Shown here: positions 3,367 through 61,801 of the stretch, piece after piece
How positions within the stretch are numbered: position 1 is the first letter of the stretch
Layout: each line of letters begins with the position of its first letter
Assembly: GCA_902524345.1 (NCBI GenBank)
Contig: CABZCX010000003.1
Location: 39,504 to 103,503 of the forward strand
Length of the DNA stretch: 64,000 nucleotides
Source of the DNA: an uncultured Pelagibacteraceae bacterium
Lineage (GTDB): Bacteria > Pseudomonadota > Alphaproteobacteria > Pelagibacterales > Pelagibacteraceae
Direction of reading: 5' to 3'
Program-made: the position numbers and the translations under genes
The notes under the pieces: generated by a model
What the model saw: only the letters and a program-made list of their open reading frames with translations
Database searches by the model: none
What the model was told of the DNA's origin: nothing

Positions 3367-3371
3367 GAAAA

Positions 3372-3734
3372 TTATTTTTTATCCAATGGGTGATTTTGAC
3401 CATCATTTACTGGAACATCCTTCATTTCAAAAGTGTTTATTTCATCAACACACCCAACATTAAATCCTGTCATAGCTGGATTAATTCTTGGATTGTGATG
3501 AGTATAAATTCCACACTCAGAACAAAAATAATGTTTAGCAACTTTTGAATGAAATTGATAAAGTTTTAATTTATCTTGACCTTTAATAATTTTGAAATCT
3601 TCATTTTTTACCATCGACATAATTGCTCCTTTTCTTTTACAAATAGAACAATTACATTTTATTACTTTAGCTAAATCTCCATCTAAATTTATTTCTGCTT
3701 CAACAGCTCCACAATGACAAACAAGTTTTTTCAT
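3372..3734 (-). CDS. GFA/CENP-V family zinc protein
   Basis: CHCG, CNCSIC and HYFCSECG cysteine motifs. Confidence 0.9.
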   Translation of the reverse strand: MKKLVCHCGAVEAEINLDGDLAKVIKCNCSICKRKGAIMSMVKNEDFKIIKGQDKLKLYQFHSKVAKHYFCSECGIYTHHNPRINPAMTGFNVGCVDEINTFEMKDVPVNDGQNHPLDKK

Positions 3735-3851
3735 TTTAATATAAAATTAAACTATCCTTGGTTGAAGTTATCCACAAGCATACAAAATATAGTTTTGATG
3801 TTCACGTTTTGATTCACTTTTGATTCAATTACGGACTCAAAATACAACCTC

Positions 3852-3880
3852 TTGCGTGCATTGTATAAATGGGCTATAAA
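3852..3880 (+). promoter_or_regulatory. Sigma70-type promoter of umuDC
   Basis: TTGCGT (3852-3857), 17 bp spacer, TATAAA (3875-3880). Confidence 0.65.
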
Positions 3881-3883
3881 TTA

Positions 3884-3898
3884 GAACAAAACAAGAAC
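3884..3898 (+). promoter_or_regulatory. LexA (SOS) box GAAC-N7-GAAC immediately before umuD
   Basis: GAACAAAACAAGAAC abuts ATG at 3899; matches the alphaproteobacterial consensus. Confidence 0.85.
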
Positions 3899-4294
3899 AT
3901 GAAACTAACTATTCCCTATTATCTGCATAAAGCTGGTGCTGGTTTCCCATCACCTGCCACTGATTATATCGAAGAAGATATCGATCTAAACATGCATCTA
4001 ATCAAAAACGTTCCGGCTACTTTTATTATCAGAGTACAAGGAAAATCCATGGTGGATGTTGGGATCAATGATGGAGACTTATTAGTTGTCGATAAAAGTT
4101 TAAAACCAAAAAATTTTTCAACCGTTATTGCGAATGTTCATGATGAGCTTGTGGTTAAAACTTTAGTTCAAGAGAGAGACAAAAAATTTTTATCGTCTGG
4201 GTCTAAAAATTTTTCAGACAGAATTTTAATTAACGAAGAAGAAGATGTTTTTATTTGGGGGGTTGTGACGTATGTCATCCATTCAACGTACTAA
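3899..4294 (+). CDS. umuD: UmuD, S24 autoproteolytic subunit of DNA polymerase V
   Basis: AGAGFPSPATDY cleavage region, catalytic Ser (GKSM) and Lys (VVKT). Start moved from 3869 to 3899 because 3869 lies inside the promoter spacer. Confidence 0.92.
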   Translation: MKLTIPYYLHKAGAGFPSPATDYIEEDIDLNMHLIKNVPATFIIRVQGKSMVDVGINDGDLLVVDKSLKPKNFSTVIANVHDELVVKTLVQERDKKFLSSGSKNFSDRILINEEEDVFIWGVVTYVIHSTY

Positions 4295-5552
4295 AAAAAT
4301 AGGCTTAGTTGATTGTAATTCTTTCTATGTTTCATGTGAAAGATTATTTAATCCAAAAATAAGAAAAAAACCTGTGGTTGTTTTATCCAATAATGATGGT
4401 TGTATCATTTCTAGATCTAATGAAGCAAAAGCGTTGGGGATCAAGATGGGTGAACCTTATTTTAAAGCAAAAAATATTATTGTTAAAAATAAAGTTGAAG
4501 TTTTTTCATCAAATTATTCGTTATACGGAGATTTATCTAGAAGAGTAATGAGAACTCTTAAAAGGTTTAATACCGAAATAGAGGTTTATTCAATCGATGA
4601 GGCATTTATAGATTTATCTAATTTTCCAGACTCAGAAGTTGAAAAGGTTGGAAGGGAAATTAGACAAACAGTTCTGCAATGGACTGGAATTCCAACAAGT
4701 ATCGGTATCGCTAAAACCAAAACATTGAGTAAAGTTGCAAATCATATCGCAAAGAAAAAACAATCAGGAGTAACGAGTTTAATTGGTATAGAAAATTTGG
4801 ATCCAATTTTAGAAAAATTTGAAATTAATGATGTATGGGGTGTCGGTAGACAACTTACAAAATTTTATCAAAAGAATGGCATCTATAATGCCAAACAACT
4901 TAAAAATAAGTCTAATACTTGGATTAAAAAATGTTCTAATGTTTTGAGCTCAAGAACTGCAATGGAACTTAGAGGAGTTCCTTGTATTGACTTAGAGACT
5001 ACACAAACAAAAAGGAAAAGTTGTGTCGTTTCAAGATCATTTGGTAAAAGAATAGAAAGTTTTCAAGAATTAAAGGAAGCAGTTGCTAATTATTGTTTGA
5101 ACGCTTCTGAAAAAATTAGATCAGAGTCTTTAGTTGCAAAAGCGATTACAGTATTTGTTAGAACCAGTCCTTTTCAAAGAGATTATGGATATTATTCAAA
5201 TTCAAAAACTGTCGACTTTCCAATTGCAACTAACAATAGTCTTGAGACTGTTAAAACTGCAATCGCAATACTTGAGAGTATATTTAGGAACGGCTGTCGT
5301 TATCAAAAAGCAGGAGTTATGCTTACAGGATTACGAGATGATGATGGTAGGAAAAATTTATTCTCATCAGAAAAAGATGAAAAAATAAAAACTTTGATGC
5401 AATCAATTGATAATACTAATTATAGATATGGTAGATCAACCTTAAGTCTTGCAAGTGCTGGAGTTCATAAAAAATGGAATATGAGAAGACAATATTCTTC
5501 TAAAATAGATACCGCTGATTTTTATTGTTTGCCAACAATCAAAGCTATTTAA
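4272..5552 (+). CDS. umuC: UmuC, Y-family DNA polymerase V
   Basis: LVDCNSFYVSCER, VLSNNDGC, YSIDEAF motifs and C-terminal W-x-MRR tail; overlaps umuD. Confidence 0.95.
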   Translation: MSSIQRTKKIGLVDCNSFYVSCERLFNPKIRKKPVVVLSNNDGCIISRSNEAKALGIKMGEPYFKAKNIIVKNKVEVFSSNYSLYGDLSRRVMRTLKRFNTEIEVYSIDEAFIDLSNFPDSEVEKVGREIRQTVLQWTGIPTSIGIAKTKTLSKVANHIAKKKQSGVTSLIGIENLDPILEKFEINDVWGVGRQLTKFYQKNGIYNAKQLKNKSNTWIKKCSNVLSSRTAMELRGVPCIDLETTQTKRKSCVVSRSFGKRIESFQELKEAVANYCLNASEKIRSESLVAKAITVFVRTSPFQRDYGYYSNSKTVDFPIATNNSLETVKTAIAILESIFRNGCRYQKAGVMLTGLRDDDGRKNLFSSEKDEKIKTLMQSIDNTNYRYGRSTLSLASAGVHKKWNMRRQYSSKIDTADFYCLPTIKAI

Positions 5553-6735
5553 CAAAATGGCAATTTGGTTCAACAACTGTCCATGATGAAGTGCCAAATT
5601 TTCTTTTTGAAATATTTTCAAAATTCAAAACTATTTTAGCTTGGTAACTGTTAAGATTACTACTATCTGACGACCATTGCTGAAGTCTTTTGATATTTTC
5701 ATGATCTGGAAACCGAGTTGCATAAGCATAAAGCCAGCCCCAATTACTCCCTTGTCTTCCATCAAGATCTTGCATTTTATAATTTTTTGCAGGTCCAGGT
5801 GCTTTCATTTCTTTGGCGTATTTAAAAACTATTTCGTTATTTTCAGTAAAATCGATGAAAAACTTAACAATATTATGAAAGTTTTTGCCTTTATATTCAT
5901 AGTCCCAAATATTATAGCCCTGGTTTTCCACAATAATTGCAATGACTGTTAAAGCATTCATTGCTCTTGCTTGGTAAAACATTGCTCTACCACCTCTTCT
6001 AGTTTCAATAGGTAAACTACCATCTTTTCTTTGATACCGAATTGTGGCTTCATAATTTTTAAAAGCTTTTTTAAAAAGCTTATTATCATTTAGCAGGACA
6101 CCCAACTGCATATGACTTATTGCAGATGACAGTGCATGGTTATGAGCTCTTTTAGGAACGCCTCTTGCTTGAGTACCATCTTTGTAGGTCATGTCATACA
6201 TAAGATGTTTGTTTTTCTTTACTATCTTTTTAAACCAATCTTTAATTATCTTATCCTCATTAGTTGCGATATCTATCACTTGTTTTGCAAAAGAATAACC
6301 AGCCATCATGGGTGAAGCCACCCATAAATTTACGGTTAGAGTATCATTCCAATGTCTACCCTCATGATCTGATGGACCGGTTCTTTTTGCTGCATCTGCT
6401 TTAGCCCATTCCAAAATAATCTTTTTTACATTTTCACACGCTTCAACACTACCCCCACCACATGGACGTTTAAAATTTTCAAATCTTTGTAACGCTCTAT
6501 TAAACCTATTATCTAATCCATAACCTTTAGGAGCTTTAACTTCTGAAATAGGTGTAACTGGATTAGTCATGGGATTGGAATACATTTTCGTCATACATCT
6601 ATTTGGATTTTTTGAAACTGGAAAAATAATTTCAGGATTATTTATTTTTGCTTTTTTCTTAATTTCTTTAAAATTCGAAAAAGACGGTGTACAAAATAAC
6701 AAATAAACTAATGTTGCAGAAATTATCCTAAACAT
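5545..6735 (-). CDS. Secreted alginate-lyase-like protein (PL5/AlgL-like fold)
   Basis: Signal-peptide-like N-terminus; AHNHA (compare AlgL NNHSY) and QRKDGSLPIETRRGGRAMFYQ (compare AlgL G-x-LP-x-E-x-x-R-x-x-RA-x-x-YH). Confidence 0.7.
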   Translation of the reverse strand: MFRIISATLVYLLFCTPSFSNFKEIKKKAKINNPEIIFPVSKNPNRCMTKMYSNPMTNPVTPISEVKAPKGYGLDNRFNRALQRFENFKRPCGGGSVEACENVKKIILEWAKADAAKRTGPSDHEGRHWNDTLTVNLWVASPMMAGYSFAKQVIDIATNEDKIIKDWFKKIVKKNKHLMYDMTYKDGTQARGVPKRAHNHALSSAISHMQLGVLLNDNKLFKKAFKNYEATIRYQRKDGSLPIETRRGGRAMFYQARAMNALTVIAIIVENQGYNIWDYEYKGKNFHNIVKFFIDFTENNEIVFKYAKEMKAPGPAKNYKMQDLDGRQGSNWGWLYAYATRFPDHENIKRLQQWSSDSSNLNSYQAKIVLNFENISKRKFGTSSWTVVEPNCHFVK

Positions 6736-9422
6736 TATCCAGTATTTTTCATTGCTGCAGCAATTCCTGCTATTGAAGTCAACAAAGTATCATTCAAATA
6801 TTCTTTATCTTTTTTATTTTTAATAGTCTTAATTTTTTTTATCGCGATAGGCTGAACTATGTTCAAAACTTCAGAATAAATATTTCTTACACCTATTGAT
6901 GTTCTAAATTGTTTTCTTGCAGCAATTATTTCTTTAGGCGTAATTTTTTTATTTAATTTTTTTATAACATCAAATTGAAATCTAAGTTTTTTTCCAACTC
7001 TCTTTAAACTTTCATCTGCTAAATGTTCTTCGTAAATTTTTGATATTTCAGGATCTGCTTTAGTAATCACCATATCTAATATATCAAGCATTGAATTAAA
7101 AAACGGCCAGTTTCTCTCCATGTCAAATAAAGTTTTTCTAAATTGTTTTATATATGAATATCTTAAAGCTTCTGCACTTCCAAGCCATGCAGGCAGCATA
7201 AGTCTAACTTGTGTCCAAGCAAACACCCAAGGGATTGCTCTTAAACTTTTTATAGTATCAATGTTTTTTCTTTTTGAGGGCCTTGAACCTATTGAAAGTT
7301 TACCAAGAGCTTTATGGGGCGTAACAGTTTCAAAGTATTTTATAAAATCAGAACTTTGATTAATATTTTTTCTATAAGAATTTTTTGATATCTCTGACAT
7401 TTTTTCAATTAACGATCTCCAACTAGCTTTTGGAACAGGTGATGGTTTTAAGGTGGCTTCAGTCACTGCACCTATGTAACTACATAAATTATATTTTGCT
7501 AAAGGTTCATAACCATATTTTTGTTGAATTACTTCACCTTGGTCGGTTATTCTTATTTTTCCTCTAACAGAGTTTGGAGGTTGTGATCTCAAAGTTGATT
7601 GAATCGGGCCACCTCCTCGTCCAGGAGATCCACCTCTTCCATGAAAAAAAGTTACGTTAATATTATATTTTTTACTTAATTTAATTATTTCCTCTTGAGC
7701 TTTATACTGATGCCAACTTGCACAAATTTTGCCTGCGTCTTTACTTGAATCTGAATAACCAATCATGACCTCCTGCTCATTTTTGATAACTTTTCTGTAC
7801 CATGATTGAGAAAACAATTTCTCCATTATATCTTTAGCATTAATTAAATCATCTAAAGTCTCAAATAATGGGACTACTCTTAACTTGTTTTTAATATTGG
7901 CTTCTTTTTGTAAAAATATTACAGATAACAAATCTGAAGCTGAATTAGTCATTGATATTACATAAGCTCCGAGACATTCACTAGGTTCGTTGGCCAAAAT
8001 TTTAAAAGTTGACCAAACTTCTTTATTTTCTCTATTTGAAAATTGAAATTTGTTTAATTGATTTTTTTTAGAGAGTATTTGTTTCTTTAAAAATTCAATT
8101 TTTTCGATTTCACTAAATTTTAAATAATTTTTTTTATATTTCTTTTTAACATATTCACTAATTACCTGACTGTGTCTTGAGGACTCTTGTCTTATATCTA
8201 ATCTTGCAAGATTAATACCAAAACACTTTGCCCTTCGCATCAAGTCTAATAATTCGCCACTAGCAAGATTTTCATTTTGATTTTGTTCTAAAGATTCTCT
8301 TACAGCTCTTAAAGGCTTTAATATCTCCTCTCGAGAACTCAATAAATTATTGTGATCTAGAGCTTTTTTATTTACAAGGTGTTGTTCTATCGATCTATGT
8401 GTGATCCTCATTTTATCTCTTAGAGGCCTTAAAAAAACTCTATAAGGCTCAAAAGATGTCCCTACACTTTTAAGAATTTTTTTTGAACATTTTTCCATAG
8501 AATAAGATCTTATTATTTTGGTAAGTGCTTTCTCGTACAACTTTGCAGCTTCCCACCTTGATAGTAAAATTACTTTTCTGGTGACATCAGCTGTAACATT
8601 TGGGTTACCATCGCGATCCCCTCCCATCCAAGATCCAAATTCAATAGGATTAAAATTTTTTGGCAAACCTTTGTTCATGTTCTGCACAAAAATTGAATTT
8701 AATCTTCTATAAACTTTTGGAATTGTATCCCACAAACTATCTTCAATTATTGCAAGTCCCCATCTTGCTTCATCGAATGGAGATGGTTTAATTCTTTTTA
8801 AATCATCCGTATTCCAAATAATAGTTAGCTCATCAAAAAGTTTTTTTTCTAAAACTGCTAATTTTGATGGAAAATTTTTAAGCAAATCTCTTTGTTCAAG
8901 AATTTCAATAATATTATGATATTTTTGAATAAGGGTTCTTCTCTTTACCTCAGTTGGGTGTGCAGTTAACACAATTCCAATTTTTAGGTTTTTAGCGGTA
9001 TTGTATATTTTTGTTTCTGAAATTTTTTTATTTCTAAAGAGATCCTCAAATATTTCCTCTATAAATATGTTGTTGTTTGAAGTTTTCTTATTACTATTTT
9101 CATATTCATTAAGCTTTCTAGAAGCATCAATTAAATCAGCCAAATTTATAAAATTCATAAAATGTGTGAATGCTCTAGTTAATTTAAATGAATTTTTTGG
9201 GCTCAGTTTTTTAATTGCTTTAATTACTGTTTGATTAGTTTGATTATTTTTAGAATTTATTTTGTTAGCTTTTGATAATTTTCTAACTTTTTCAACTAAT
9301 TCAAAAAACTTTTGACCTTCTTGTTCTTTGATAACTCTACCTAAAATATTACCCAGATATTTAACATTTTCCCTGAAAAATCTAGTTGGTATACGCTCAT
9401 AATATAGATCTCTTTTTTTCAT
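6735..9422 (-). CDS. ppc: Phosphoenolpyruvate carboxylase
   Basis: LTAHPTE, SWMGGDRDGNP, MIGYSDSSKDAG, FHGRGGSPGRGGGP, SLRAIPWVF motifs. Confidence 0.98.
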   Translation of the reverse strand: MKKRDLYYERIPTRFFRENVKYLGNILGRVIKEQEGQKFFELVEKVRKLSKANKINSKNNQTNQTVIKAIKKLSPKNSFKLTRAFTHFMNFINLADLIDASRKLNEYENSNKKTSNNNIFIEEIFEDLFRNKKISETKIYNTAKNLKIGIVLTAHPTEVKRRTLIQKYHNIIEILEQRDLLKNFPSKLAVLEKKLFDELTIIWNTDDLKRIKPSPFDEARWGLAIIEDSLWDTIPKVYRRLNSIFVQNMNKGLPKNFNPIEFGSWMGGDRDGNPNVTADVTRKVILLSRWEAAKLYEKALTKIIRSYSMEKCSKKILKSVGTSFEPYRVFLRPLRDKMRITHRSIEQHLVNKKALDHNNLLSSREEILKPLRAVRESLEQNQNENLASGELLDLMRRAKCFGINLARLDIRQESSRHSQVISEYVKKKYKKNYLKFSEIEKIEFLKKQILSKKNQLNKFQFSNRENKEVWSTFKILANEPSECLGAYVISMTNSASDLLSVIFLQKEANIKNKLRVVPLFETLDDLINAKDIMEKLFSQSWYRKVIKNEQEVMIGYSDSSKDAGKICASWHQYKAQEEIIKLSKKYNINVTFFHGRGGSPGRGGGPIQSTLRSQPPNSVRGKIRITDQGEVIQQKYGYEPLAKYNLCSYIGAVTEATLKPSPVPKASWRSLIEKMSEISKNSYRKNINQSSDFIKYFETVTPHKALGKLSIGSRPSKRKNIDTIKSLRAIPWVFAWTQVRLMLPAWLGSAEALRYSYIKQFRKTLFDMERNWPFFNSMLDILDMVITKADPEISKIYEEHLADESLKRVGKKLRFQFDVIKKLNKKITPKEIIAARKQFRTSIGVRNIYSEVLNIVQPIAIKKIKTIKNKKDKEYLNDTLLTSIAGIAAAMKNTG

Positions 9423-54789: not shown

Positions 54790-55896
54790 ATGTCATCAGG
54801 CAAAAATGGTAAATTTTATACTGACCATTTGTATGGTCTTAGGGCAATTTGTGCTCTTACAGTAGCTTTGTATCACTTCAAAACTGTATCTACATCACCA
54901 ATTACAAACAATTTATTTATCGAGAATGGCTACAGATTTGTCGATATTTTTTTTTGTCTAAGTGGATCTATATTATATTTAAAGTACTCTGAAATAAAAA
55001 AAGAATTTAGAAGTATATATATTTTTTTAAAAAAAAGATTTTTTAGATTATTTCCGCTTCATCTATTACTCTTATTTTTATTTTTTTTGATTGAAATTGC
55101 TAAATTTTTAGTTGAAAAAAAATTTAATTTGTACGGTAATACTCACGCGTTTGAAATTCTAAATATTGAGAGTTTTTTTTTAAAGTTATTGATGCTGGAG
55201 GGTTTTTGGGGTGACGTTAATGCAACATTAGCTCTAAATCCAGTATCCTGGTCAATTTCTGTAGAATTTTTTTGCTATATTCTTTTTATCTCCATATTAG
55301 TTTTAAGTAGTAGGTCATTTAGCATTTTCATATTTATTTTTTTAGTTTTATCAAGCTTGTCTATTCTTGCTTATAATAGAAGTTTTTTTGAAATTGGAAA
55401 TTTAATGTGTTTAATGAGAACTATTTATAGTTTTTTTCTTCCAATAATAATTTTTATTTTATTAAAAAAAGTAGATTTTAAAACTAATAATTTTTTTATA
55501 TATATAGTTTTTTCTCTTCTAATATATTTAATTACTTTAAATACAATTTTATCTTATATTTTATGTCCAATACTAGTAAGTCTGTTCATAAATTTAACTC
55601 TAAATAAAAAAAAAAATAATTATTTGATATCTATATTAAGTTCTAATTTTCTTAAATTTTTAGGTAAGATTAGTTATGGTATTTATATGTTTCATGTCTT
55701 GGTTTGGTGGGTTACATCACAATTTTTGAGATTTATACTAAAATACCAAACTAAATTTATTCCCTCTAAAGAAATAACAATTTTAGATTTAAGTGTGCTG
55801 GAGAGTAATTTAGTTTTAATATTGGGAATTACTGTAACAATAATTATTTCAAGTTTAAGTTACCATTTTTTTGAAAACAGATTTTATAAAAAATGA
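54790..55896 (+). CDS. Acyltransferase family 3 (OafA-like membrane O-acyltransferase)
   Basis: LYGLRAI..L.V.LYH, VDIFFCLSG, RFFRLFPLH, WSISVEF, LGKISYGIYMFH, SYHFFE. Confidence 0.9.
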   Translation: MSSGKNGKFYTDHLYGLRAICALTVALYHFKTVSTSPITNNLFIENGYRFVDIFFCLSGSILYLKYSEIKKEFRSIYIFLKKRFFRLFPLHLLLLFLFFLIEIAKFLVEKKFNLYGNTHAFEILNIESFFLKLLMLEGFWGDVNATLALNPVSWSISVEFFCYILFISILVLSSRSFSIFIFIFLVLSSLSILAYNRSFFEIGNLMCLMRTIYSFFLPIIIFILLKKVDFKTNNFFIYIVFSLLIYLITLNTILSYILCPILVSLFINLTLNKKKNNYLISILSSNFLKFLGKISYGIYMFHVLVWWVTSQFLRFILKYQTKFIPSKEITILDLSVLESNLVLILGITVTIIISSLSYHFFENRFYKK

Positions 55897-55925: not shown

Positions 55926-56002
55926 TGGTGGGCCCGCCAGGACTCGAACCTGGGACCAATACATTATGAGTGTACTGCTCTAACCAACTGAGCTACAGGC
56001 CC
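55926..56002 (-). tRNA. tRNA-Ile2(CAU), lysidine type
   Basis: GGGCCTGTAGCTCAGTTGG..., anticodon loop CTCATAA, C4/C5 acceptor-stem bases typical of TilS substrates, encoded CCA. Confidence 0.93.
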
Positions 56003-56105
56003 TTGAAATTAATTAGGTATTACACCAATTTTAAAATTCATACAAGTTAACTTTACAAACAATAGATTGTATTTTTCTAAAATTTTAGACACAAACTTTG
56101 CATTC

Positions 56106-56126
56106 GTTGGTAAATCCGTTGGTAAA
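56106..56126 (+). repeat. Tandem GTTGGTAAA repeat pair (left end of cassette)
   Basis: Copies at 56106-56114 and 56118-56126. Confidence 0.9.
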
Positions 56127-56132
56127 AATTTT

Positions 56133-58220
56133 TTATAAATTTTTAAAGGTTTTTTCAGAAATTCCATTTATTCTTAATTTCTTATATTTTAAAATTTCTT
56201 TAGCAACCTTTAAGAAAGATGTATTTTTTAATTCTTCAGCTTTTTTGAAGTCATAACCATAAATCCAGATATCTTTTAATTTATTTAATTTTTTGAATAT
56301 ATTAAAATCAGTATAACCATTCGCTAAACGAGTTATAACACCACCTTCTTGATTATTCTTAGTAAAGTAATTGTAATATCTTAATTTTTCAAAAGTTTTG
56401 ATTTTTTCGAAATTTGGAAAATCATCTACCTGTAAAATTCTATGCATAAAATATAAATCATCATAACTTCCTGCATATCCTTTATGATTAATAAATTCGT
56501 CTGTAGGTTTGTCATCCTTTACTTCTTTAGGAATAACAATTTCAAAGTCCTTTAATTTTTTGGGATAAAGATTTTTTGGAAAACCAACACTTGGTGGAGA
56601 TCTTAAGTAACTATCAGCATTTAAAGTAAATCTTTCTAGATTCGGCAACTTATATAAGTTTTTGAAAAAAGACGTAGCTGTTTTCCAATCAATGATACAG
56701 GTATCCAAATGTAAATGTTTTAGTTTCTTTAGTTTTGATAGTGGTGTCCAATCTTTAATATACTTAATATTGGCTAACACTAATTGTTCAATATCTTTAA
56801 GTTTTTCGATTTCTTTCAAACTTTTTGTGTCTCTTAGATCTATTTTATCAATCTGAGCGTATTTAAGCTTTTTATCAACCGCATTTCTTAAATATGGACT
56901 TTCCTTATTTATTTTGTTTGCTATTAATTTTCCTTTTTCATTTTTGTTTAAATAGCAACCTTTAATACCTTCAACCACGATTTTGACATATGCATTTTCA
57001 TAACCATCTGAATCTTTAGTATCATAACAATGTAAATATACCGGGTAAGAACCCTTTTTCATTGGCAAAATGATTTTGGTTAAAGAAAAATCAATATCAT
57101 TTTTAAATTTATAACCATCGAACAGCTCTGATACTCCTGCTGATATTAAATCAGTTGATATTTCCAACTTCTTGTCACTTATTTCTCTCTTTTTTGATTT
57201 TTTTCCAAATGTTGGTAGATCTAATTCTTGGGGCTCAATATCTTTAATTATGCCAATAATGAAATCTTCGAATTGCTTTTTTCTAATTTCAAAACCTTCT
57301 TTAAAATTTTCTTTGAATAAAATTTTTGACTGTTTTTTTAGTATTTGAATAGCTTTTGGTAGTCGACTAGATATATATTTTCCGGAAAGTTTTACATTCT
57401 CTTTTATTTTTAAATTAGTCTCCCATCTTTTATAATGTTCACTTTCATCTTTATTTGCTAGATAATCCTCAAAAATATATTTAGTTGGATAACAATTTTC
57501 ATCTAATTGATTGTTAAATAATTCAGTATAAGAATAATTAATTGGCTCCTGATGAGGTTTTAACTCTTTATGTATAACCGATGAACTAAAACTAGATGAT
57601 TCAGGTTTATTTATAAGACCATATGAAAATTTAACACTAAATATTGGTGAAGAGTTTTGAAAAATTCCGTCTTTTTTAAAATGATCTAATTTAATAATTT
57701 CATTTAAATCCCCATCTTCATCTAACGTATCATTGTTAACACCTAATAAAGATCGTAATGGTCCACCAAAATCACCGACAGCTATTAAACCTGATTTAGT
57801 ATTTAGATCAAATAACTTAATTCTATTTTCTTTTAATTTACCAAAAAATTGATCATTAAAATCTTCTTTATCCCACCACCAGGATAAATAACTTTGCCTA
57901 TCTTTAGGATGTTGAACATATTCGGCAACTTGTGCATCAGCAAATATTTTTCTTATTCTATTTTTAGCATCTACACCAATGTAAACAGAATAGCCGCCAT
58001 CTGCTGAAGTTCCAAAAGATATAGAGTTATATTTTGATGCATCTTTTTTTTTGAACTCATCAACCAGCTCTTTTACAGGACCACCTGTTCCCCATCCAGT
58101 TTCAAAATCATTTGTTAATCGCTCACATAAATCTCCAACTGTAACCGTTGCAGCATCAACAGCATTCATTTCCAACAAATAAACATCTGTTATTGGAAAT
58201 GGATCTCTGAGTTTTTTCAT
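56133..58220 (-). CDS. 695-aa hypothetical protein: DUF4241-like motifs at the N-terminus, LRR-like C-terminus
   Basis: AVDAATVTVGD, FGTSADGGYSVYIGVD, LFDLNTKSGLIAVGD, KKGSYPVYL; LxxLxLxx repeats (LKDIEQLVLAN, LKKLKHLHLDT, LPNLERFTLN). ORF is solid, domain calls are by eye. Confidence 0.6.
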   Translation of the reverse strand: MKKLRDPFPITDVYLLEMNAVDAATVTVGDLCERLTNDFETGWGTGGPVKELVDEFKKKDASKYNSISFGTSADGGYSVYIGVDAKNRIRKIFADAQVAEYVQHPKDRQSYLSWWWDKEDFNDQFFGKLKENRIKLFDLNTKSGLIAVGDFGGPLRSLLGVNNDTLDEDGDLNEIIKLDHFKKDGIFQNSSPIFSVKFSYGLINKPESSSFSSSVIHKELKPHQEPINYSYTELFNNQLDENCYPTKYIFEDYLANKDESEHYKRWETNLKIKENVKLSGKYISSRLPKAIQILKKQSKILFKENFKEGFEIRKKQFEDFIIGIIKDIEPQELDLPTFGKKSKKREISDKKLEISTDLISAGVSELFDGYKFKNDIDFSLTKIILPMKKGSYPVYLHCYDTKDSDGYENAYVKIVVEGIKGCYLNKNEKGKLIANKINKESPYLRNAVDKKLKYAQIDKIDLRDTKSLKEIEKLKDIEQLVLANIKYIKDWTPLSKLKKLKHLHLDTCIIDWKTATSFFKNLYKLPNLERFTLNADSYLRSPPSVGFPKNLYPKKLKDFEIVIPKEVKDDKPTDEFINHKGYAGSYDDLYFMHRILQVDDFPNFEKIKTFEKLRYYNYFTKNNQEGGVITRLANGYTDFNIFKKLNKLKDIWIYGYDFKKAEELKNTSFLKVAKEILKYKKLRINGISEKTFKNL

Positions 58221-58267
58221 ATTTTATATTAAAATAAAATTTAATCTTTGTCTGAAGGATATCATTT

Positions 58268-58288
58268 GTTGGTAAATAGTTGGTAAAT
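58268..58288 (+). repeat. Tandem GTTGGTAAAT repeat pair (right end of cassette)
   Basis: Copies at 58268-58277 and 58279-58288. Confidence 0.9.
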
Positions 58289-58361
58289 TTTTATTGAAAA
58301 AAAAGGCCTCTAATGGAGGTTAGTTTTAAACACTTATTTAAGATTTTTTTTTGAGTCGTAA

Positions 58362-58401
58362 ATTATGAGTGTACTGCTCTAACCAACTGAGCTACAGGCC
58401 C
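58362..58401 (-). pseudogene. 5' half of tRNA-Ile(CAU) (nt 1-40), att-site remnant
   Basis: Exact copy of the tRNA 5' end through the anticodon loop; diverges immediately after CTCATAAT. Confidence 0.92.
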
Positions 58402-58552
58402 AAAGAAAGTAATATTGTTCTACATCTTTTTAAAATTTTTGCTATTTAAAAATAAATAAAAACGTAATTTGTCCTTTTATAACGTCATGTTCAATAAATA
58501 TTTAATGATAAATTGAAGTGCGGTATTTCAATACTAATATGCTTATATTACT

Positions 58553-59257
58553 TTAGCAAATTTTTTTAAATCTTTTTACATTCATCGTTGAGTTTAGTGG
58601 GAGACTGTTTTTTTTAATCTTTAAAACCTTTTTTTTAATTTTTTTATTATCTTTTTTAGCAAAATTATAAACGGACTGCACTGGGCCTCCTATATTAATG
58701 ATACCTTTCTTGTTTAGTAATTTGAAGAAAACTTTTACAAGATCCTCATGAAACATAAAATTTGTTTTTAAGTTTGTATATGCATAATTGTATGCAAAAG
58801 GTTTCTCAATCATACAAATTCTTAATATAAGAGAATTTTTCAACATTTGAACTGCACATTCACCTCCTAGTTTAGACCAGGCATAATTATTAATTGGGAG
58901 CAATGGGTGATATTCTTTGTAATTCCCTTTTTTAGAGGGGTAAACGTAATTTGTTGAAAAATAGATGAGCTTAATCTTATATTTTTGACAAAGGGTTACT
59001 ATATTTGCTGTACCAATAATATTTGTATTAATGCTTACATCAATTTTTTTTTCATGAAAAACCATTGGTCTTGAAATTGCTGCAGTGTGAATAATAATTT
59101 TTGGTTTTATTTTTTTAATATATTTCTCCATTTTGTTAAAATTCGTAACATCGAACACTTTAGATGATGGATAGCTAATATTTTTTTTATTTAAATAAAA
59201 TTTTTTAAACACTTTACCAAACCTTCCACTACCACCAGTAAAGATTATTTTTTTCAT
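58553..59257 (-). CDS. rmlD: RmlD-like dTDP-sugar reductase (short, 234 aa)
   Basis: TGGSGRFG, IHTAA, FSTNYVY, YAWSK (YxxxK); last gene of the rml cluster. Confidence 0.75.
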   Translation of the reverse strand: MKKIIFTGGSGRFGKVFKKFYLNKKNISYPSSKVFDVTNFNKMEKYIKKIKPKIIIHTAAISRPMVFHEKKIDVSINTNIIGTANIVTLCQKYKIKLIYFSTNYVYPSKKGNYKEYHPLLPINNYAWSKLGGECAVQMLKNSLILRICMIEKPFAYNYAYTNLKTNFMFHEDLVKVFFKLLNKKGIINIGGPVQSVYNFAKKDNKKIKKKVLKIKKNSLPLNSTMNVKRFKKIC

Positions 59258-59784
59258 CTTTTATTTTTTTTGAAATCTTTAAAAGAGATAGCAGATTTAT
59301 CTCTTTTGGAGATGATTGGTTTTTTTAAACCCCAATTAATTTTTAAATCAACATCATTCCATTTTATAGATACCTCACTTTTTGGATCTCTATAATCCGA
59401 ACAAGTGTAGTGAACAATATTTTCTCTATCTAATGCAAGAAATCCATGGGCAAAGCCTTTAGGAATAAAAAAAGATTTAGAGTTTTTCTCACTTATTATT
59501 GTTTTGTAATGTTTTCCGTAAGTTTTAGAATTTTTTCTTAAATCAACAGCTACGTCTAAAATTTTACCTTTTAAACATGTAATTATTTTATCTTGAGATC
59601 TTTTTGTTTGTAAATGTAAACCTCTCAAGACATTTTTTTTTGATTTTGAAGTTATTGAAAGAGTCATATTTTTATTTAAATTACTTTTTTTAAAAGTTTC
59701 TTTTAACCATCCTCTTTGATCAGTAAATTTTCTACCTTGTAAAATAAAAAGGTCTTTTATATTAGTTTTTTTTTTTTTCATCAC
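59254..59784 (-). CDS. rmlC: dTDP-4-dehydrorhamnose 3,5-epimerase
   Basis: DQRGWLKE, LRGLHLQ, DVAVDLR, GFAHGF, SKRD. Confidence 0.96.
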   Translation of the reverse strand: MMKKKKTNIKDLFILQGRKFTDQRGWLKETFKKSNLNKNMTLSITSKSKKNVLRGLHLQTKRSQDKIITCLKGKILDVAVDLRKNSKTYGKHYKTIISEKNSKSFFIPKGFAHGFLALDRENIVHYTCSDYRDPKSEVSIKWNDVDLKINWGLKKPIISKRDKSAISFKDFKKNKR

Positions 59785-60651
59785 TCAAATTAACTTTTTT
59801 AAGTAATTCGCGTAGTTACAATTTCCATAAAATTGAATTGCATTTAAAATCTCTTTTTTTCCAATCCATTTATTGTTAAAAGCAATTTCTTCTGGACAAC
59901 CAATTTTAAAACCTTGTCTATTTTCTATTGCTGATACGAAAGCGCTTGTTTTATAAAAATCTTCTATAGAACCACTATCTAACCATGCGCTTCCACGACC
60001 AAGAATTTCTGATGTCAATTTTTTTTTTCTTAAATAAATTTTTAATAAATCTACGATCTCCAACTCTTTTCTTGATGAAGGTTTTAGTTGTTTTGAATAT
60101 TTAACGACTTTTTTATCAAAAAAATAAAGTCCTGTTACTGCTAAATTAGAAATATATTTTTTAGGTTTTTCAATAATATTCAAAATTTTATTATTTTTAT
60201 TTACTTTGGCGACACCAAATAATTCTGGATTTAAAACTCTATGTAAAATAATTCTAGCTCCAGATTTTAATTTTTTATATTTATTTAAATTTTCAGATAA
60301 ACCTTGACCATAAAAAAAATTATCTCCTAAAATCATTGCAACACTTTTATTATCAATAAATTTTTCTCCTAAAATAAATGCATCTGGTAAGCCTCTTGGT
60401 TTGCTTTGCTCTTGATAACTGACTTTAATTCCAAGATTTTTTCCATTTTGTATTAATTTTCTATATTGATTAATTTGACCCTTGTTAACAATAATCAGGA
60501 TATCTCTAATCTTTGATAACATTAAAATTGAAAGAGGATAAAAAATAAGCGGTTTATCGTAAATGGGTAACAGCTGTTTATTTACAGCTTTTGTAAGCGG
60601 ACTCATTCTTGTTCCAGTTCCGCCCGCAAGTATAATTCCTTTATTAATCAT
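59785..60651 (-). CDS. rmlA: Glucose-1-phosphate thymidylyltransferase
   Basis: GIILAGGTGTRM, KQLLPIYDKP, LGDN, EKP, WLDSG. Confidence 0.97.
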   Translation of the reverse strand: MINKGIILAGGTGTRMSPLTKAVNKQLLPIYDKPLIFYPLSILMLSKIRDILIIVNKGQINQYRKLIQNGKNLGIKVSYQEQSKPRGLPDAFILGEKFIDNKSVAMILGDNFFYGQGLSENLNKYKKLKSGARIILHRVLNPELFGVAKVNKNNKILNIIEKPKKYISNLAVTGLYFFDKKVVKYSKQLKPSSRKELEIVDLLKIYLRKKKLTSEILGRGSAWLDSGSIEDFYKTSAFVSAIENRQGFKIGCPEEIAFNNKWIGKKEILNAIQFYGNCNYANYLKKLI

Positions 60652-61663
60652 TTTTACCCAATCTCCGAAGAATATCTTTTTTTGTTAAGAATTTATAGTA
60701 TGATTTATTTTTATTATACCAGTTGAAAGTATTCTTTAACCCAATTGTAAAATTTGTTTTTGGACGGAACTTTAACTCCCGTTTTATCTTTTTGCTATCT
60801 AAAGCATAGCGAAAATCATGACCCGGTCTATCTTTAACAAAATTTATTTTTACTTTATTGCCAATCTTTATCAATTTTTTTGAAATATTTAAAAGACTTT
60901 TACATACCTCAAGATTTGAAAGATTTTTATTTGAACCTATATTATAAAATTCTCCAATCTTCCCATTTTTGAAAATTTTTAATAAAGCTTCGCAATGATC
61001 TTTGACATAAATCCACTCTCTCGAATTAATACCTTTACCGTAGATTGGTAAATTTCTATTATTCAAAATATTATAAATCAACTTCGGTATTAATTTTTCA
61101 GGGTGTTGTTTTGGTCCATAATTATTTGAACAATTGGTAACAATTGCGGGAATCTTGTATGTTCTAATGTAAGAAAAAACTAAGTGGTCTGAAGCAGCTT
61201 TACTAGCGGCATATGGAGAACTTGGTCTATATGAGTTTTTTTCTGATGCTCTTCCTTTTAAAATATCACCAAAAACTTCATCAGTCGATATGTGAATTAA
61301 TCTTGATTTGTATTTTTTTGAAAATGATTTGAAATATTCTAAAAGATTATAGACACTTATTATATTGCTATTAATAAAATTTTTTGGATTATCTATGGAT
61401 CTATCCACATGAGTTTCGGCAGCTAAATTAAAAATACATACTGGTTTGTATCTAAAAAGAATATTTCTCATTTTAGTATTCCCAATATCACATCTTATAA
61501 ACTTATAGTTTTTTGAAGCTTTAAAATTTTTTACATTATAGAAATTTGAAGAGTAAGTTACTTTGTCTATATTCAATACTTTATATTTTTTTTCCAATAA
61601 TAACTCTATCAGATTGCTGCCAATAAAGCCTAATCCACCAGTAACAATTATATTTTTTGACAT
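60644..61663 (-). CDS. rmlB: dTDP-glucose 4,6-dehydratase
   Basis: TGGLGFIG, AAETHVDRS, ISTDEV, YAASK, DRPGHD. Confidence 0.97.
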   Translation of the reverse strand: MSKNIIVTGGLGFIGSNLIELLLEKKYKVLNIDKVTYSSNFYNVKNFKASKNYKFIRCDIGNTKMRNILFRYKPVCIFNLAAETHVDRSIDNPKNFINSNIISVYNLLEYFKSFSKKYKSRLIHISTDEVFGDILKGRASEKNSYRPSSPYAASKAASDHLVFSYIRTYKIPAIVTNCSNNYGPKQHPEKLIPKLIYNILNNRNLPIYGKGINSREWIYVKDHCEALLKIFKNGKIGEFYNIGSNKNLSNLEVCKSLLNISKKLIKIGNKVKINFVKDRPGHDFRYALDSKKIKRELKFRPKTNFTIGLKNTFNWYNKNKSYYKFLTKKDILRRLGKND

Positions 61664-61721
61664 TAATATTTTTATTTCATTGCAAAGAATTTATAAGATT
61701 AATGTTTAATTTACAAATTAA

Positions 61722-61796
61722 TGGTGGGCCGTGTTGGTTACGCTCCAACTACCCCTGCAATGTCAATGCAGTACTCTACTATTGAGCTAACGGCCC
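61722..61796 (-). tRNA. tRNA-Val(GAC) with non-canonical T-loop
   Basis: Complete cloverleaf: GGGCCGT/ACGGCCC acceptor stem, CTGCA-TTGACAT-TGCAG, GTTGG-AGCGTAA-CCAAC, A73 and CCA. Confidence 0.9.
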
Positions 61797-61801
61797 GGAA
61801 A

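What the first reader, a model, noticed from the sequence alone, without database searches (positions are those of the whole stretch)
56133..58220. Cargo protein: apparently permuted DUF4241-like domain fused to leucine-rich repeats
Seen: motifs I associate with the second half of DUF4241 (VDA...D; G..DG.Y.VY.G.D) come first, and first-half motifs (L.L.SG.I.VGD; .G.YPV) follow, the latter split by a long insert; the C-terminal ~240 aa has LRR-like LxxLxLxx units; there is no signal peptide or TM. Inference: a cytoplasmic sensor/immunity-type protein; as sole cargo of a mobile tRNA cassette it is a candidate anti-phage or toxin-immunity factor. Domain identity is from memory of the motifs and needs confirmation.
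Basis: inference. Interest (0 to 1): 0.7.

Follow-up and report, generated by a model that had tools for sequence, protein, structure and literature searches.

The report
Rearranged DUF4241 domain plus LRR protein
A rare, horizontally moving gene of the ocean bacterium Pelagibacter (SAR11) encodes a cytoplasmic protein that joins a circularly rearranged copy of an uncharacterised domain (DUF4241) to a leucine-rich-repeat binding module, and its genomic company suggests, but does not prove, a role in defence against phages.

Summary
ORF 56133-58220 (minus strand, 695 aa) is intact. It has no membrane segment, signal peptide or P-loop.

- **LRR:** residues ~437-695 form a leucine-rich-repeat solenoid. 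This rests on the AlphaFold model, on Foldseek hits that are all LRR proteins, and on Pfam LRR hits in 25 of 27 relatives.
- **Permuted domain:** the N-terminal region carries the four DUF4241 motif blocks in the order 3-4-1-2. In native order, profile comparison gives two separate weak hits. After de-permutation it gives one alignment over nearly the whole domain (probability 96%, E 4.7e-9; shuffled controls score at most 23 against 62). A tandem-doubled DUF4241 profile is crossed at its junction (87-92%).
- **Insert:** the ~214-aa insert (166-379) is missing from distant relatives, so it is lineage-specific.
- **Distribution:** the gene is accessory, found in 7 of 401 family genomes.
- **Cassette:** here it is the only gene between a tRNA(CAU) and a 43-nt copy of that tRNA's 5' half. 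Sister cassettes at this site carry restriction-modification systems or an integrase.
- **Company elsewhere:** homologues sit in tight operons with nucleases, helicases and methylases.
- **Alleles:** they are mosaic, and the LRR end varies most.

Function is inferred only. A defence or conflict sensor is most likely (~0.5). The scan's other notes on this stretch concern the cassette, not the protein.

The parts
56133..58220 (-). Complete ORF, 695 aa plus stop (P0001); the pDUF4241-insert-LRR protein
   Evidence: It is full length relative to 117 homologues of 684-722 aa.
57921..58199 (-). Residues 8-100: the part equivalent to the C-terminal half of DUF4241 (VDAAxxxxxD block, then xDGGYxVYxGVDxxNxxxKIF block)
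   Evidence: Pfam DUF4241 profile 154-186 matches residues 60-91. hhalign aligns residues ~64-98 to DUF4241 191-226 (E 1.1e-4) and includes them in the 166-column de-permuted alignment.
57726..57869 (-). Residues 118-165: equivalent of the DUF4241 N-terminal block (R.KLFDL..SGLIAVGD)
   Evidence: hhalign aligns the family profile to DUF4241 28-48.
57084..57725 (-). Residues 166-379: lineage-specific insert with the invariant YPTKYIF motif and a 49-residue helix (280-328)
   Evidence: It is absent from ten distant relatives. Its core has high model confidence, pLDDT 93-97 for residues 230-330. No Pfam, PDB or BFVD match was found.
56913..57083 (-). Residues 380-436: equivalent of the second DUF4241 block (FPxxxGSYPVYLH ... 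VKIVVEGIxGCYL)
   Evidence: hhalign aligns it to DUF4241 ~55-100. It is conserved in all relatives.
56136..56912 (-). Residues 437-695: leucine-rich-repeat solenoid with about 8 strands. The first repeats are 23-28 aa and the later ones are irregular (33-54 aa). It is basic (pI 9.5) and is the most variable part between alleles.
   Evidence: Pfam LRR_14/LRR_4; PDB profile hits to Anp32, internalin B and YopM; Foldseek hits to LRRC8A, LIC12759 and InlB; repeat spacing; variability.
55926..56002 (-). Intact tRNA with CAU anticodon (ARAGORN calls it Met), 130 nt downstream of the gene
   Evidence: The same gene-then-tRNA arrangement is seen in RS40 and G242.
58359..58401 (-). 43-nt direct repeat of the tRNA 5' half (42/43 identical), 138 nt upstream of the gene; the other boundary of the 2.4-kb cassette
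   Evidence: (0 matches expected by chance).
58268..58287 (-). Two TTTACCAAC copies 11 nt apart, just inside the upstream cassette end
   Evidence: 5 in the window against 0.76 expected. The same motif lies near the cassette ends in G368, G516 and G641.
56106..56126 (-). Two TTTACCAAC copies 12 nt apart, just after the stop codon and inside the downstream cassette end

Best explanation
The gene encodes a soluble cytoplasmic protein of three parts.

1. A conserved N-terminal beta-rich domain is a circular permutant of DUF4241. Its sequence order is blocks 3-4-1-2.
2. A ~214-residue helical insert, including a 49-residue helix, was acquired in the SAR11 lineage. It lies between blocks 1 and 2.
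3. A C-terminal leucine-rich-repeat solenoid is the fastest-changing part and is exchanged between alleles by recombination.

Shown:
- the architecture and the permutation;
- the accessory and mobile status of the gene;
- its position as sole cargo of an integrase-less, tRNA-half-flanked cassette;
- sister cassettes at the same site that carry restriction-modification systems.

Inferred: it is a conflict (most likely anti-phage or anti-mobile-element defence) protein.
- The LRR would bind a foreign or infection-altered ligand.
- The constant permuted-DUF4241 module would transmit or execute the response. It could do so alone, as here, or with the PD-(D/E)XK nuclease or nuclease-helicase genes that accompany it in most other genomes.

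The biochemical activity of the DUF4241-like module is unknown. The confidence figure below is for the defence reading. Confidence in the architecture and permutation is about 0.85-0.9.
For: Architecture:
- hhalign de-permuted alignment: probability 96%, E 4.7e-9, against shuffles with a maximum score of 23.3.
- Doubled-template test: 87-92% probability.
- Recurrent Pfam DUF4241 hits at the N-terminus.
- LRR fold.
- No TM segment and no P-loop.

Accessory and mobile status:
- The gene is in 2 of 41 and 7 of 401 genomes searched.
- The tRNA-half repeat flanks it.
- Of the 81 genomes of the genus searched, 72 hold one copy of the tRNA 5' half, 2 hold none, and 6 hold two same-strand copies 2.4-11.3 kb apart.
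- Of the four occupied sites without this gene, three carry R-M cassettes and one carries a tyrosine integrase.
- In SAR11, podovirus pelagiphages integrate at tRNA genes and supply a partial 5' tRNA end (bioRxiv 10.1101/410191).

Company in other genomes:
- two C5 methylases plus an HNH nuclease;
- a Cas4-like nuclease fused to an SF1 helicase;
- PDDEXK_1 nucleases, a Type ISP R-M enzyme, RmuC, an exonuclease and an SNF2 helicase;
- a PD-(D/E)XK-type nuclease lies within three genes, on the same strand, in 6 of 8 distinct contexts.

Modularity:
- P0004 is 97% identical in the N-domain but 63% in the distal LRR. P0023 is 82% in the N-domain and 92-97% in the LRR.
- Relatives attach the same core to extra LRRs, DUF4116 repeats, WGR or OST-HTH domains. 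That is a constant module with variable binding modules.

Selection and expression:
- Strong conservation over the full length in a streamlined genome argues for a selected function.
- Near-identical copies occur in 20 marine and estuary runs from 12 studies.
- Patches are present in metatranscriptomes.
Against: - No match to any PADLOC defence model or PHROG.
- No homologue in phage collections.
- The N-domain model has no Foldseek match in PDB or BFVD (E > 0.28), so no activity can be assigned.
- The conserved residues shared with DUF4241 are mostly Gly, Pro and Asp, which may be structural rather than catalytic.
- Partner genes vary and are absent here, so no fixed multi-gene system is defined.
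- Canonical DUF4241 neighbourhoods were uninformative.
- Guilt by association in islands is weak evidence.
- The RNA evidence cannot exclude DNA carry-over.
Confidence: 0.5

Rival explanations
1. It is an immunity or inhibitor protein. The LRR and/or the acidic DUF4241-like module would bind and neutralise a toxin or nuclease. The target could be an incoming polymorphic toxin (the Imm-LRR type) or the co-encoded PD-(D/E)XK nuclease or nuclease-helicase. The copy here would then be an orphan immunity gene kept after loss of, or as protection from, the nuclease.
For: - Imm-LRR proteins are a recognised class in heterogeneous polyimmunity loci (PMC3482391).
- The N-domain is acidic (pI 5.2).
- A nuclease gene lies within three genes in 6 of 8 contexts.
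- Earlier scan notes, unverified, place DUF4241 genes next to nuclease toxins and in immunity arrays.
- Mosaic, variable LRR alleles also fit immunity proteins.
Against: - No toxin gene, secretion system or other Imm family was seen in any of the 8 contexts.
- The neighbours are R-M, methylase and helicase genes instead.
- From general knowledge, SAR11 cells are dilute, free-living plankton in which contact-dependent toxin exchange is not expected.
- The gene occurs here and in G242 without any nuclease partner.
- The polymorphic-toxin survey does not mention DUF4241 in the text held.
- At 695 aa with a conserved 214-aa insert, it is large for an immunity protein.
Confidence: 0.2
2. It serves the mobile island itself, for example in maintenance, regulation, partner recruitment or mobilisation by a helper phage or integrase. 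This would explain why it is always the gene next to the tRNA attachment site.
For: - In all three islands at this tRNA (window, RS40, G242) it is the last gene, read towards the tRNA, 130-140 nt from it.
- That is the position an integrase often occupies. These three islands lack an integrase.
- It travels with conserved small ORFs of 89, 94 and 115-152 aa.
Against: - In G013, L015, L025 and L027 it lies away from any tRNA, in different loci.
- Cassettes with the same ends carry R-M genes and no homologue of it, so the ends do not need it.
- There is no recombinase, DNA-binding or replication signature.
- The integrase of the family member in G439 is an ordinary tyrosine recombinase.
Confidence: 0.12
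3. The DUF4241 resemblance is convergent (short Gly/Asp beta-turn motifs). The N-terminal region would then be an unrelated new fold attached to an LRR.
For: - Every Pfam DUF4241 hit is below the gathering score: 11.5-18.5 bits against 27.
- The VDAG block alone is not significant in the doubled-template test (probability about 1%).
- The protein-atlas search returns DUF4241 clusters even for the insert region, so that lead is not discriminating.
- No structural comparison with a DUF4241 model could be made, because none is in the PDB.
Against: - Four blocks match with exact internal spacing.
- One continuous 166-column profile alignment has E 4.7e-9. Its score of 62.5 is far above 60 shuffles (maximum 23.3) and the reversed profile (12.4).
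- Only the orders that restore DUF4241 colinearity score high: BCA 96% and CAB 90%, against 56-64% for the others.
- The doubled-template test, which uses no chosen segments, agrees for five different master sequences.
Confidence: 0.12

Closest known systems
DUF4241 (Pfam PF14025), bacterial and phage proteins of ~190-250 aa with unknown function
   Same: All four conserved blocks are present with identical internal spacing: SG....D, G.YPV, VDxG....D and GDG.Y...G.D. Profile-profile homology covers ~200 of 233 positions after de-permutation.
   Different: - The block order is circularly permuted (3-4-1-2).
- A 214-aa helical insert splits blocks 1 and 2 in the SAR11 clade.
- The domain is fused to an LRR.
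- The Pfam gathering score is never reached.
- DUF4241 itself has no known function or solved structure.
Imm-LRR immunity proteins of polymorphic toxin / polyimmunity loci (Zhang et al. 2012, PMC3482391)
   Same: Both are cytoplasmic bacterial LRR proteins encoded in variable, horizontally exchanged loci, and both show diversifying alleles.
   Different: - No toxin, secretion or other immunity genes lie nearby.
- The neighbours are R-M, nuclease and helicase genes.
- The protein carries a large extra N-terminal domain.
Bacterial NLR-like / STAND antiviral proteins (Avs, bNACHT): effector + NTPase + repeat sensor
   Same: A variable C-terminal repeat module is joined to a conserved N-terminal module. 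The gene lies in defence-type islands. Relatives swap the repeat module (LRR, DUF4116).
   Different: - There is no NTPase: no Walker A motif and no NACHT or NB-ARC hit.
- No PADLOC model matches.
- The N-terminal module is not a known effector.
Cysteine-containing (FBXL / ribonuclease-inhibitor-like) and internalin/Anp32-type LRR domains
   Same: The fold and the ~23-28-residue repeats with an LxxLxLxxC/N core are shared. Best sequence and fold matches are Anp32, InlB, LRRC8, Leptospira LIC proteins and SKP2.
   Different: The later repeats are irregular (33-54 aa). Sequence identity is 10-19%. All hits are below Pfam thresholds for this protein.
tRNA-targeting integrative elements of SAR11 (HTVC019P-type pelagiphages, bioRxiv 10.1101/410191)
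   Same: Integration is within a tRNA gene, with the element supplying a replacement 5' part. This leaves a 5'-half tRNA repeat.
   Different: The 2.4-kb cassette has no integrase and no phage genes. It carries one cargo gene and paired TTTACCAAC repeats. No integrase homologue was found in this 90%-complete genome.

Membership tests
DUF4241 (PF14025) | Score at or above the Pfam gathering threshold (27 bits) | tested here: not met
   P0001 scores 11.5 bits, E 0.33. The best among relatives is 18.5 bits.
DUF4241 (PF14025) | Presence of the four conserved motif blocks with family-typical spacing | tested here: met
   Blocks are at residues 21-30, 73-95, 136-150 and 390-394. Spacings of 8, 21, 6 and 3 residues equal those in the DUF4241 alignment A2.
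DUF4241 (PF14025) | Colinear order of the blocks (1-2-3-4) | tested here: not met
   The order here is 3-4-1-2. In native order, hhalign gives two separate hits to DUF4241 28-75 and 191-226.
DUF4241 (PF14025) | Profile-level homology over the whole domain | tested here: met
   De-permuted profile: 166 columns, probability 96%, E 4.7e-9. Doubled template: 87-92% probability, E 6e-7 to 4e-6.
DUF4241 (PF14025) | Same three-dimensional fold | not testable with these tools
   No DUF4241 chain is in the PDB. No model-to-model or permutation-aware superposition tool was available. Foldseek of the N-domain found nothing.
Leucine-rich repeat superfamily | Repeated LxxLxLxx(N/C) units forming a strand-turn-helix solenoid | tested here: met
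   The AlphaFold2 model (pLDDT 84-97 in 440-695) has 8 regularly spaced strands. Foldseek matches LRR proteins with probability 0.97-1.0. LRR_14 hits 25 of 27 relatives, best E 6e-7. This protein alone stays below Pfam thresholds (17.4 bits against 40).
STAND / NLR-like antiviral proteins (Avs, bNACHT) | Central P-loop NTPase (NACHT / NB-ARC / STAND) domain | tested here: not met
   No Walker A motif. No NTPase family in Pfam or NCBIfam. No PADLOC hit.
Known anti-phage defence families (PADLOC-DB 2.0) | Match to a model of a known or candidate defence protein | tested here: not met
   0 families at E <= 0.01.
Polyimmunity-locus immunity proteins (Imm-LRR) | Adjacency to a polymorphic toxin gene or to arrays of other immunity genes | tested here: not met
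   None in 8 distinct neighbourhoods. The neighbours are R-M, methylase, nuclease and helicase genes.
tRNA-integrated mobile cassette (cargo status) | Direct repeats of part of the tRNA flanking the segment; the site lacking the repeat in relatives; variable cargo | tested here: met
   A 43-nt repeat, 42/43 identical. Of the 81 genomes searched, 72 hold one copy of the tRNA 5' half, 2 hold none, and 6 hold two same-strand copies 2.4-11.3 kb apart. Cargo differs between them: R-M systems, an integrase, or this gene.

The most novel reading that the evidence does not exclude
The permuted-DUF4241/LRR protein is a new, NTPase-free, single-chain immune receptor of SAR11.

- Its recombining LRR would recognise a pelagiphage component.
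- The permuted DUF4241 module, with its helical insert as an oligomerisation or lever element, would be a previously unknown effector or signalling domain. It could act alone or arm adjacent PD-(D/E)XK nuclease-helicases.
- The gene would spread as plug-in cargo of integrase-less tRNA cassettes, mobilised in trans by pelagiphage-type integrases.

If true, this would give DUF4241 its first function. It would also add a defence family to the most abundant marine bacterium, which is thought to be poor in defences.
Probability: 0.3. Interest if true: 0.8.

Novelty: new variant of a known kind. Interest (0 to 1): 0.55.

Why it matters
[quoted passage not shown] A conserved 2-kb accessory gene that moves between strains is therefore likely to matter for survival. 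This one sits where sister cassettes carry restriction-modification systems.

The work gives three things:
- A firm sequence-level case of circular permutation plus domain insertion in DUF4241, a widespread domain of unknown function.
- A small, purely marine family in which this core is coupled to interchangeable binding modules: LRR, DUF4116, WGR and OST-HTH. The family comprises about 90 clusters at 50% identity among 1.8 billion proteins.
- A concrete candidate for a new defence or conflict gene that can be tested against cultured pelagiphages.

It also ties the protein to a hot spot of small, tRNA-flanked cassettes. That hot spot is a simple model for how SAR11 exchanges such genes.

Tried and rejected
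- **Foldseek, full model against PDB.** It sees only the LRR. A separate model of residues 1-436 found nothing in PDB or BFVD (best E 0.28-0.36), so no fold assignment is possible for the N-domain.
- **Profile against PDB sequences.** Only weak LRR hits. The DUF4241 profile has no solved relative.
- **NCBIfam, PADLOC and PHROGs.** No hit for the protein.
- **Phage genomes (tblastn) and IMG/VR.** No relative. A phage origin for the gene is not supported.
- **First hhalign with shallow alignments** (27 against 9 sequences). It gave the right positions but only 9-23% probability. It needed the deeper profiles.
- **Protein atlas.** DUF4241 clusters came up for the N-region at score 0.70, but also for the insert at 0.65. 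I discount it as evidence.
- **Full-text search for 'DUF4241'.** 0 papers. The SAR11 'unknome' paper and the 'Pelagibacter, resolved' preprint do not mention LRR or DUF4241.
- **Canonical DUF4241 neighbourhoods** (3 look-ups). The genes around them are unrelated and gave no functional clue.
- **A fixed operon partner.** The ORF immediately upstream is not homologous across all contexts. Only subsets share the 89-aa, 94-aa and 115-152-aa ORFs and the nuclease-helicase.
- **Trans-acting genes in this genome.** No helicase-nuclease homologue and no homologue of the G439 integrase. The genome is 90% complete.
- **Internal duplication in the 1431-aa variants.** The extra half only shows more LRR-like sequence.
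- **Metatranscriptome mapping.** Patchy, low-depth coverage. DNA carry-over is not excluded, so transcription is not shown.
Full report
**What is there.** The window is low-GC DNA (about 25-30% around the gene) from a Pelagibacter (SAR11) genome. The best named relative of the protein is a hypothetical protein of Candidatus Pelagibacter sp. RS40, at 70% identity. The ORF at 56133-58220 on the minus strand is open for 695 codons. It is full length compared with 117 homologues of 40-94% identity, which align over their whole length. The protein has no hydrophobic segment (maximum 19-residue Kyte-Doolittle mean 1.03), no signal-like N-terminus and no Walker A motif.

**The LRR half.**
- Pfam gives only sub-threshold LRR hits for this protein (LRR_14 E 0.0019, residues 468-541). 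LRR_14 is hit in 25 of 27 family members, best E 6e-7.
- A family profile finds Anp32, internalin B and YopM-type chains in the PDB, weakly (E 0.07-0.4).
- An AlphaFold2 model built on the 27-sequence alignment has mean pLDDT 80.4 and pTM 0.79, with pLDDT 84-97 in residues 440-695.
- Its Foldseek matches in the PDB are almost all LRR proteins: LRRC8A, Leptospira LIC12759 and LIC12234, InlB, SDS22 and SKP2, with probability up to 1.0.
- The model has eight evenly oriented strands. They start 23-28 residues apart for the first repeats and 33-54 residues apart for the later, irregular ones.

**The permuted DUF4241-like half: motifs.** I built a reference alignment of nine DUF4241 proteins taken from genomes that pass the Pfam cut-off. 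Canonical DUF4241 has four conserved blocks in this order:
1. G..L.lpSG.lvacDP
2. PG.YPV
3. gypVDaG...fmD
4. sGwGDG.Yp.fwG.D...p....DF

In this protein the same blocks lie at residues 136-150, 390-394, 21-30 and 73-95 respectively. Within-block spacings are identical (6, 3, 8 and 21 residues). Along the sequence the order is therefore 3-4-1-2.

**The permuted half: statistics.**
- Pfam's own model touches only block 4 (residues 60-91 to profile 154-186 of 189, E 0.33). That hit recurs in 23 of 27 family members and in distant relatives (P0123, P0131, P0140 and P0184 at E 0.002-0.009).
- For a proper test I searched 1.84 billion representative proteins with a profile of residues 1-436. This gave 90 hits.
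- I added 17 distant relatives to the family profile, making 44 sequences. I then built a 72-sequence non-redundant DUF4241 profile.
- In native order, hhalign gives two separate local hits: blocks 1+2 to DUF4241 28-75 (E 6.6e-5) and block 4 to 191-226 (E 1.1e-4).
- With the segments re-joined in the DUF4241 order, a single alignment of 166 columns covers DUF4241 28-224 of 233. It has probability 96%, E 4.7e-9 and score 62.5.
- The other four segment orders do not improve on native order, except C-A-B. That order also restores blocks 2-3-4 and reaches 90%.
- Sixty column-shuffled controls scored 12.9 ± 2.6 (maximum 23.3). The reversed profile scored 12.4.

Because I chose those segments myself, I repeated the test the standard way, with no choices. 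The native-order profile was run against a tandem-doubled DUF4241 profile. For five different insert-less master sequences, the best alignment runs across the junction of the two template copies. For P0117, query 62-209 aligns to template 172-267 of 2×211, with probability 92% and E 6.4e-7, against a score of 37 with the single template. Block 3 alone is not significant in that test. The claim rests on blocks 4, 1 and 2 plus the overall colinear alignment. I put homology with circular permutation at about 0.85-0.9.

**The insert.** In ten distant relatives, block 1 is followed by block 2 after only ~40-60 residues. The stretch that corresponds to residues ~166-379 here is simply absent. The insert is thus specific to the SAR11-type clade and to P0123 and P0126. 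It is among the most confidently modelled and best-conserved parts: pLDDT is 93-97 for residues 230-330, the YPTKYIF motif is invariant, and there is a 49-residue helix at 280-328. It matches nothing in Pfam, PDB or BFVD.

**No fold assignment for the N-domain.** A separate model of residues 1-436 (pLDDT 76, pTM 0.79) has no Foldseek match in PDB or BFVD better than E 0.28. No DUF4241 structure exists in the PDB. The structural side of the permutation could therefore not be tested here.

**Genomic setting in the window.** Reading along the minus strand, the order is:
1. rmlB, rmlA, rmlC and a short rmlD;
2. a 43-nt copy (42/43 identical) of the 5' half of a tRNA (58401-58359);
3. 138 nt of spacer;
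4. the gene;
5. 130 nt of spacer;
6. the intact tRNA(CAU) (56002-55926);
7. on the other strand, acyltransferase, mlaC and mlaA.

The gene is the only ORF of 60 aa or more between the repeats, apart from a 64-aa antisense ORF inside it. Two TTTACCAAC copies lie just inside each end of the cassette. There are five copies in the window against 0.76 expected.

**The cassette is an insertion with variable cargo.** I searched 81 near-complete genomes of the genus for the tRNA 5' half.
- 72 have one copy of the tRNA 5' half.
- 2 have none.
- One, G424, has two copies far apart on opposite strands.
- Six, counting this genome, have two same-strand copies 2.4-11.3 kb apart.

Among the occupied sites:
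- G368 and G516 carry two C5 DNA methylases plus a restriction nuclease.
- G641 carries a helicase-type restriction enzyme plus two methylases.
- G439 carries a 234-aa protein plus a tyrosine integrase, which matches PDB 5c6k integrase at E 5.6e-12.
- RS40 (11.3 kb) and G242 (9.2 kb) carry a homologue of this gene as the last, tRNA-proximal gene, together with other genes.

The TTTACCAAC pairs recur at the cassette ends in G368, G516 and G641. Known SAR11 podoviruses integrate inside tRNA genes and supply a replacement 5' part (bioRxiv 10.1101/410191). That matches the 5'-half repeat seen here. This genome (90% complete) has no detectable homologue of the G439 integrase. 'Sole cargo of a mobile tRNA cassette' is thus supported. 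Whether the cassette can still move is unknown.

**Distribution.** With this protein as query, a homologue was found in 2 of 41 relatives. It was found in 7 of 401 species-level genomes of the family (4 of 174 high-quality ones; 3 of 19 genera). Yet near-identical DNA is present in 20 marine and estuary runs from 12 studies, and the protein clusters hold up to 115 member sequences. It is a rare but widely dispersed flexible-genome gene, not a housekeeping gene. All relatives found come from marine or aquatic metagenomes.

**Company elsewhere.** In eight distinct neighbourhoods the gene sits in tightly packed, co-directional gene strings, with gaps from -4 to +30 nt.
- **RS40:** two C5 methylases, an HNH_2 nuclease, ORFs of 89 and 94 aa, a 1128-aa protein, and ORFs of 118, 115 and 195 aa, then the gene. 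The 1128-aa protein has a Cas4-like nuclease N-terminus and an SF1 helicase C-terminus that resembles MkoA.
- **G242:** a HATPase_c_3 protein and a 708-aa protein.
- **L015:** the same nuclease-helicase and small ORFs as RS40.
- **G013:** a PD-(D/E)XK nuclease, RmuC, an exonuclease, DUF2130 and an SNF2 helicase.
- **L025:** a PD-(D/E)XK nuclease, and a DNA methylase overlapping the gene's stop codon.
- **L027:** the nuclease-helicase immediately upstream and a Type ISP restriction enzyme downstream.
- **L029:** methylases and a PD-(D/E)XK nuclease, at the same rpoD-mlaC hot spot.

A PD-(D/E)XK-type nuclease lies within three genes in 6 of 8 contexts. No single partner is universal, and the ORF immediately upstream is not always homologous. 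The picture is a mosaic defence-type island rather than a fixed operon.

**Allele structure and relatives.**
- Between close alleles, the distal LRR (536-695) is the most divergent region. Mean pairwise identity there is 62%, against 75% for the N-domain.
- The two halves have different histories. P0004 is 97% identical to this protein in residues 1-165 but 63% in the distal LRR. P0023 is 82% in the N-domain and 92-97% in the LRR. This points to recombination that reassorts recognition modules.
- Further relatives attach the same permuted core to other modules: additional LRR blocks (1226-1431-aa forms), ten DUF4116 repeats, an N-terminal WGR domain or an OST-HTH domain. The core also occurs alone.
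- A constant module joined to interchangeable binding modules is the usual design of conflict proteins.

**Expression.** Contigs from four marine metatranscriptome runs cover patches of the gene at 92-100% identity and low depth, while the adjacent acyltransferase segment is empty. This is compatible with transcription, but DNA carry-over is not excluded.

**Interpretation.** Shown: the architecture, the permutation, the lineage-specific insert, the LRR fold, the cytoplasmic location, the accessory and cassette status, and the defence-type neighbours.

Inferred: the function. I commit to a defence or conflict role at about 0.5. In this model the LRR binds a foreign or infection-altered ligand, and the constant permuted-DUF4241 module relays or executes the response, alone or with neighbouring nucleases. 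The rivals are:
- an immunity or nuclease-inhibitor role (0.2);
- a role for the island itself (0.12);
- a convergent, non-homologous N-domain. This concerns the architecture only (0.12).

Against the defence reading: no PADLOC or PHROG match, no assignable activity, and variable partners.

**Novelty.** No paper in the searchable library mentions DUF4241. Two recent SAR11 pangenome and 'unknome' papers do not mention this family. The polymorphic-toxin survey lists Imm-LRR but not DUF4241. The protein is best described as a new variant of a known, functionally blank domain family: circularly permuted, insert-bearing and LRR-fused. It sits in a setting that makes it a testable candidate defence gene of SAR11.

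Earlier notes of this scan on the same stretch concern the cassette and its repeats. My checks agree with them. Notes from other genomes that link DUF4241 to nucleases and immunity arrays were used only as leads.

Noticed in passing
window 55926-58401, and loci L035-L038 (G439, G368, G641, G516): The same tRNA(CAU) site is a cassette hot spot. In the 81 genomes searched, 72 hold a single copy of the tRNA 5' half, 2 hold none, and 6 hold two same-strand copies 2.4-11.3 kb apart. Their cargo is restriction-modification systems, a tyrosine integrase plus a 234-aa protein, or the LRR gene.
   Followed up: partly
window 56106-56126 and 58268-58287; L036 200-219 and 4120; L038 209-228 and 4169; L037 4929-4948: Paired TTTACCAAC repeats lie ~75-140 nt inside the cassette ends, in cassettes with unrelated cargo. 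This fits integrase arm-type sites.
   Followed up: partly
L023 (RS40) 2487-7681; L015 4733-12171; L024 3013-3640 and 8774-9040; L027 479-3835: A recurrent accessory module travels with the LRR gene in other genomes: ORFs of ~89, ~94, 115-152 and ~195 aa, plus a 1118-1145-aa Cas4-like nuclease / SF1 helicase with MkoA-like C-terminal similarity. It may be an undescribed multi-gene defence system.
   Followed up: partly
window 58553-59257 (-): The rmlD ORF is only 234 aa and matches RmlD_sub_bind over profile positions 2-151 of 287 only. It may be truncated or divergent. It ends 152 nt from the half-tRNA.
   Followed up: no
window 58402-61800: rmlBACD and tRNA-Val lie between the half-tRNA and rpoD here. 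In RS40 and G242 the half-tRNA lies within a few hundred bases of rpoD. The rhamnose cluster therefore occupies a second variable slot.
   Followed up: no
window 54790-55896 (+) compared with L013 8574-10379 and L014 8887-9910: The segment between the tRNA and mlaC also differs between genomes. It holds an acyltransferase_3 here, 320-aa and 151-aa ORFs in RS40, and a 151-aa ORF plus CIA30 in G242. This is a third variable slot at the same locus.
   Followed up: no
L024 4019-6145 and L025 15937-18058: Island-borne 708-821-aa proteins carry RNA_pol_A_CTD and sigma-70 region-4 similarity, and they cluster with RpoD by BLAST. They sit next to HATPase_c_3 or DUF6339 genes. Their function is unknown.
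   Followed up: no
window 55926-56002: ARAGORN calls the CAU tRNA 'Met'. Its acceptor stem has C4-G69 and C5-G68, and another first-stage note reads it as tRNA-Ile(CAU). Its identity was not resolved here.
   Followed up: no
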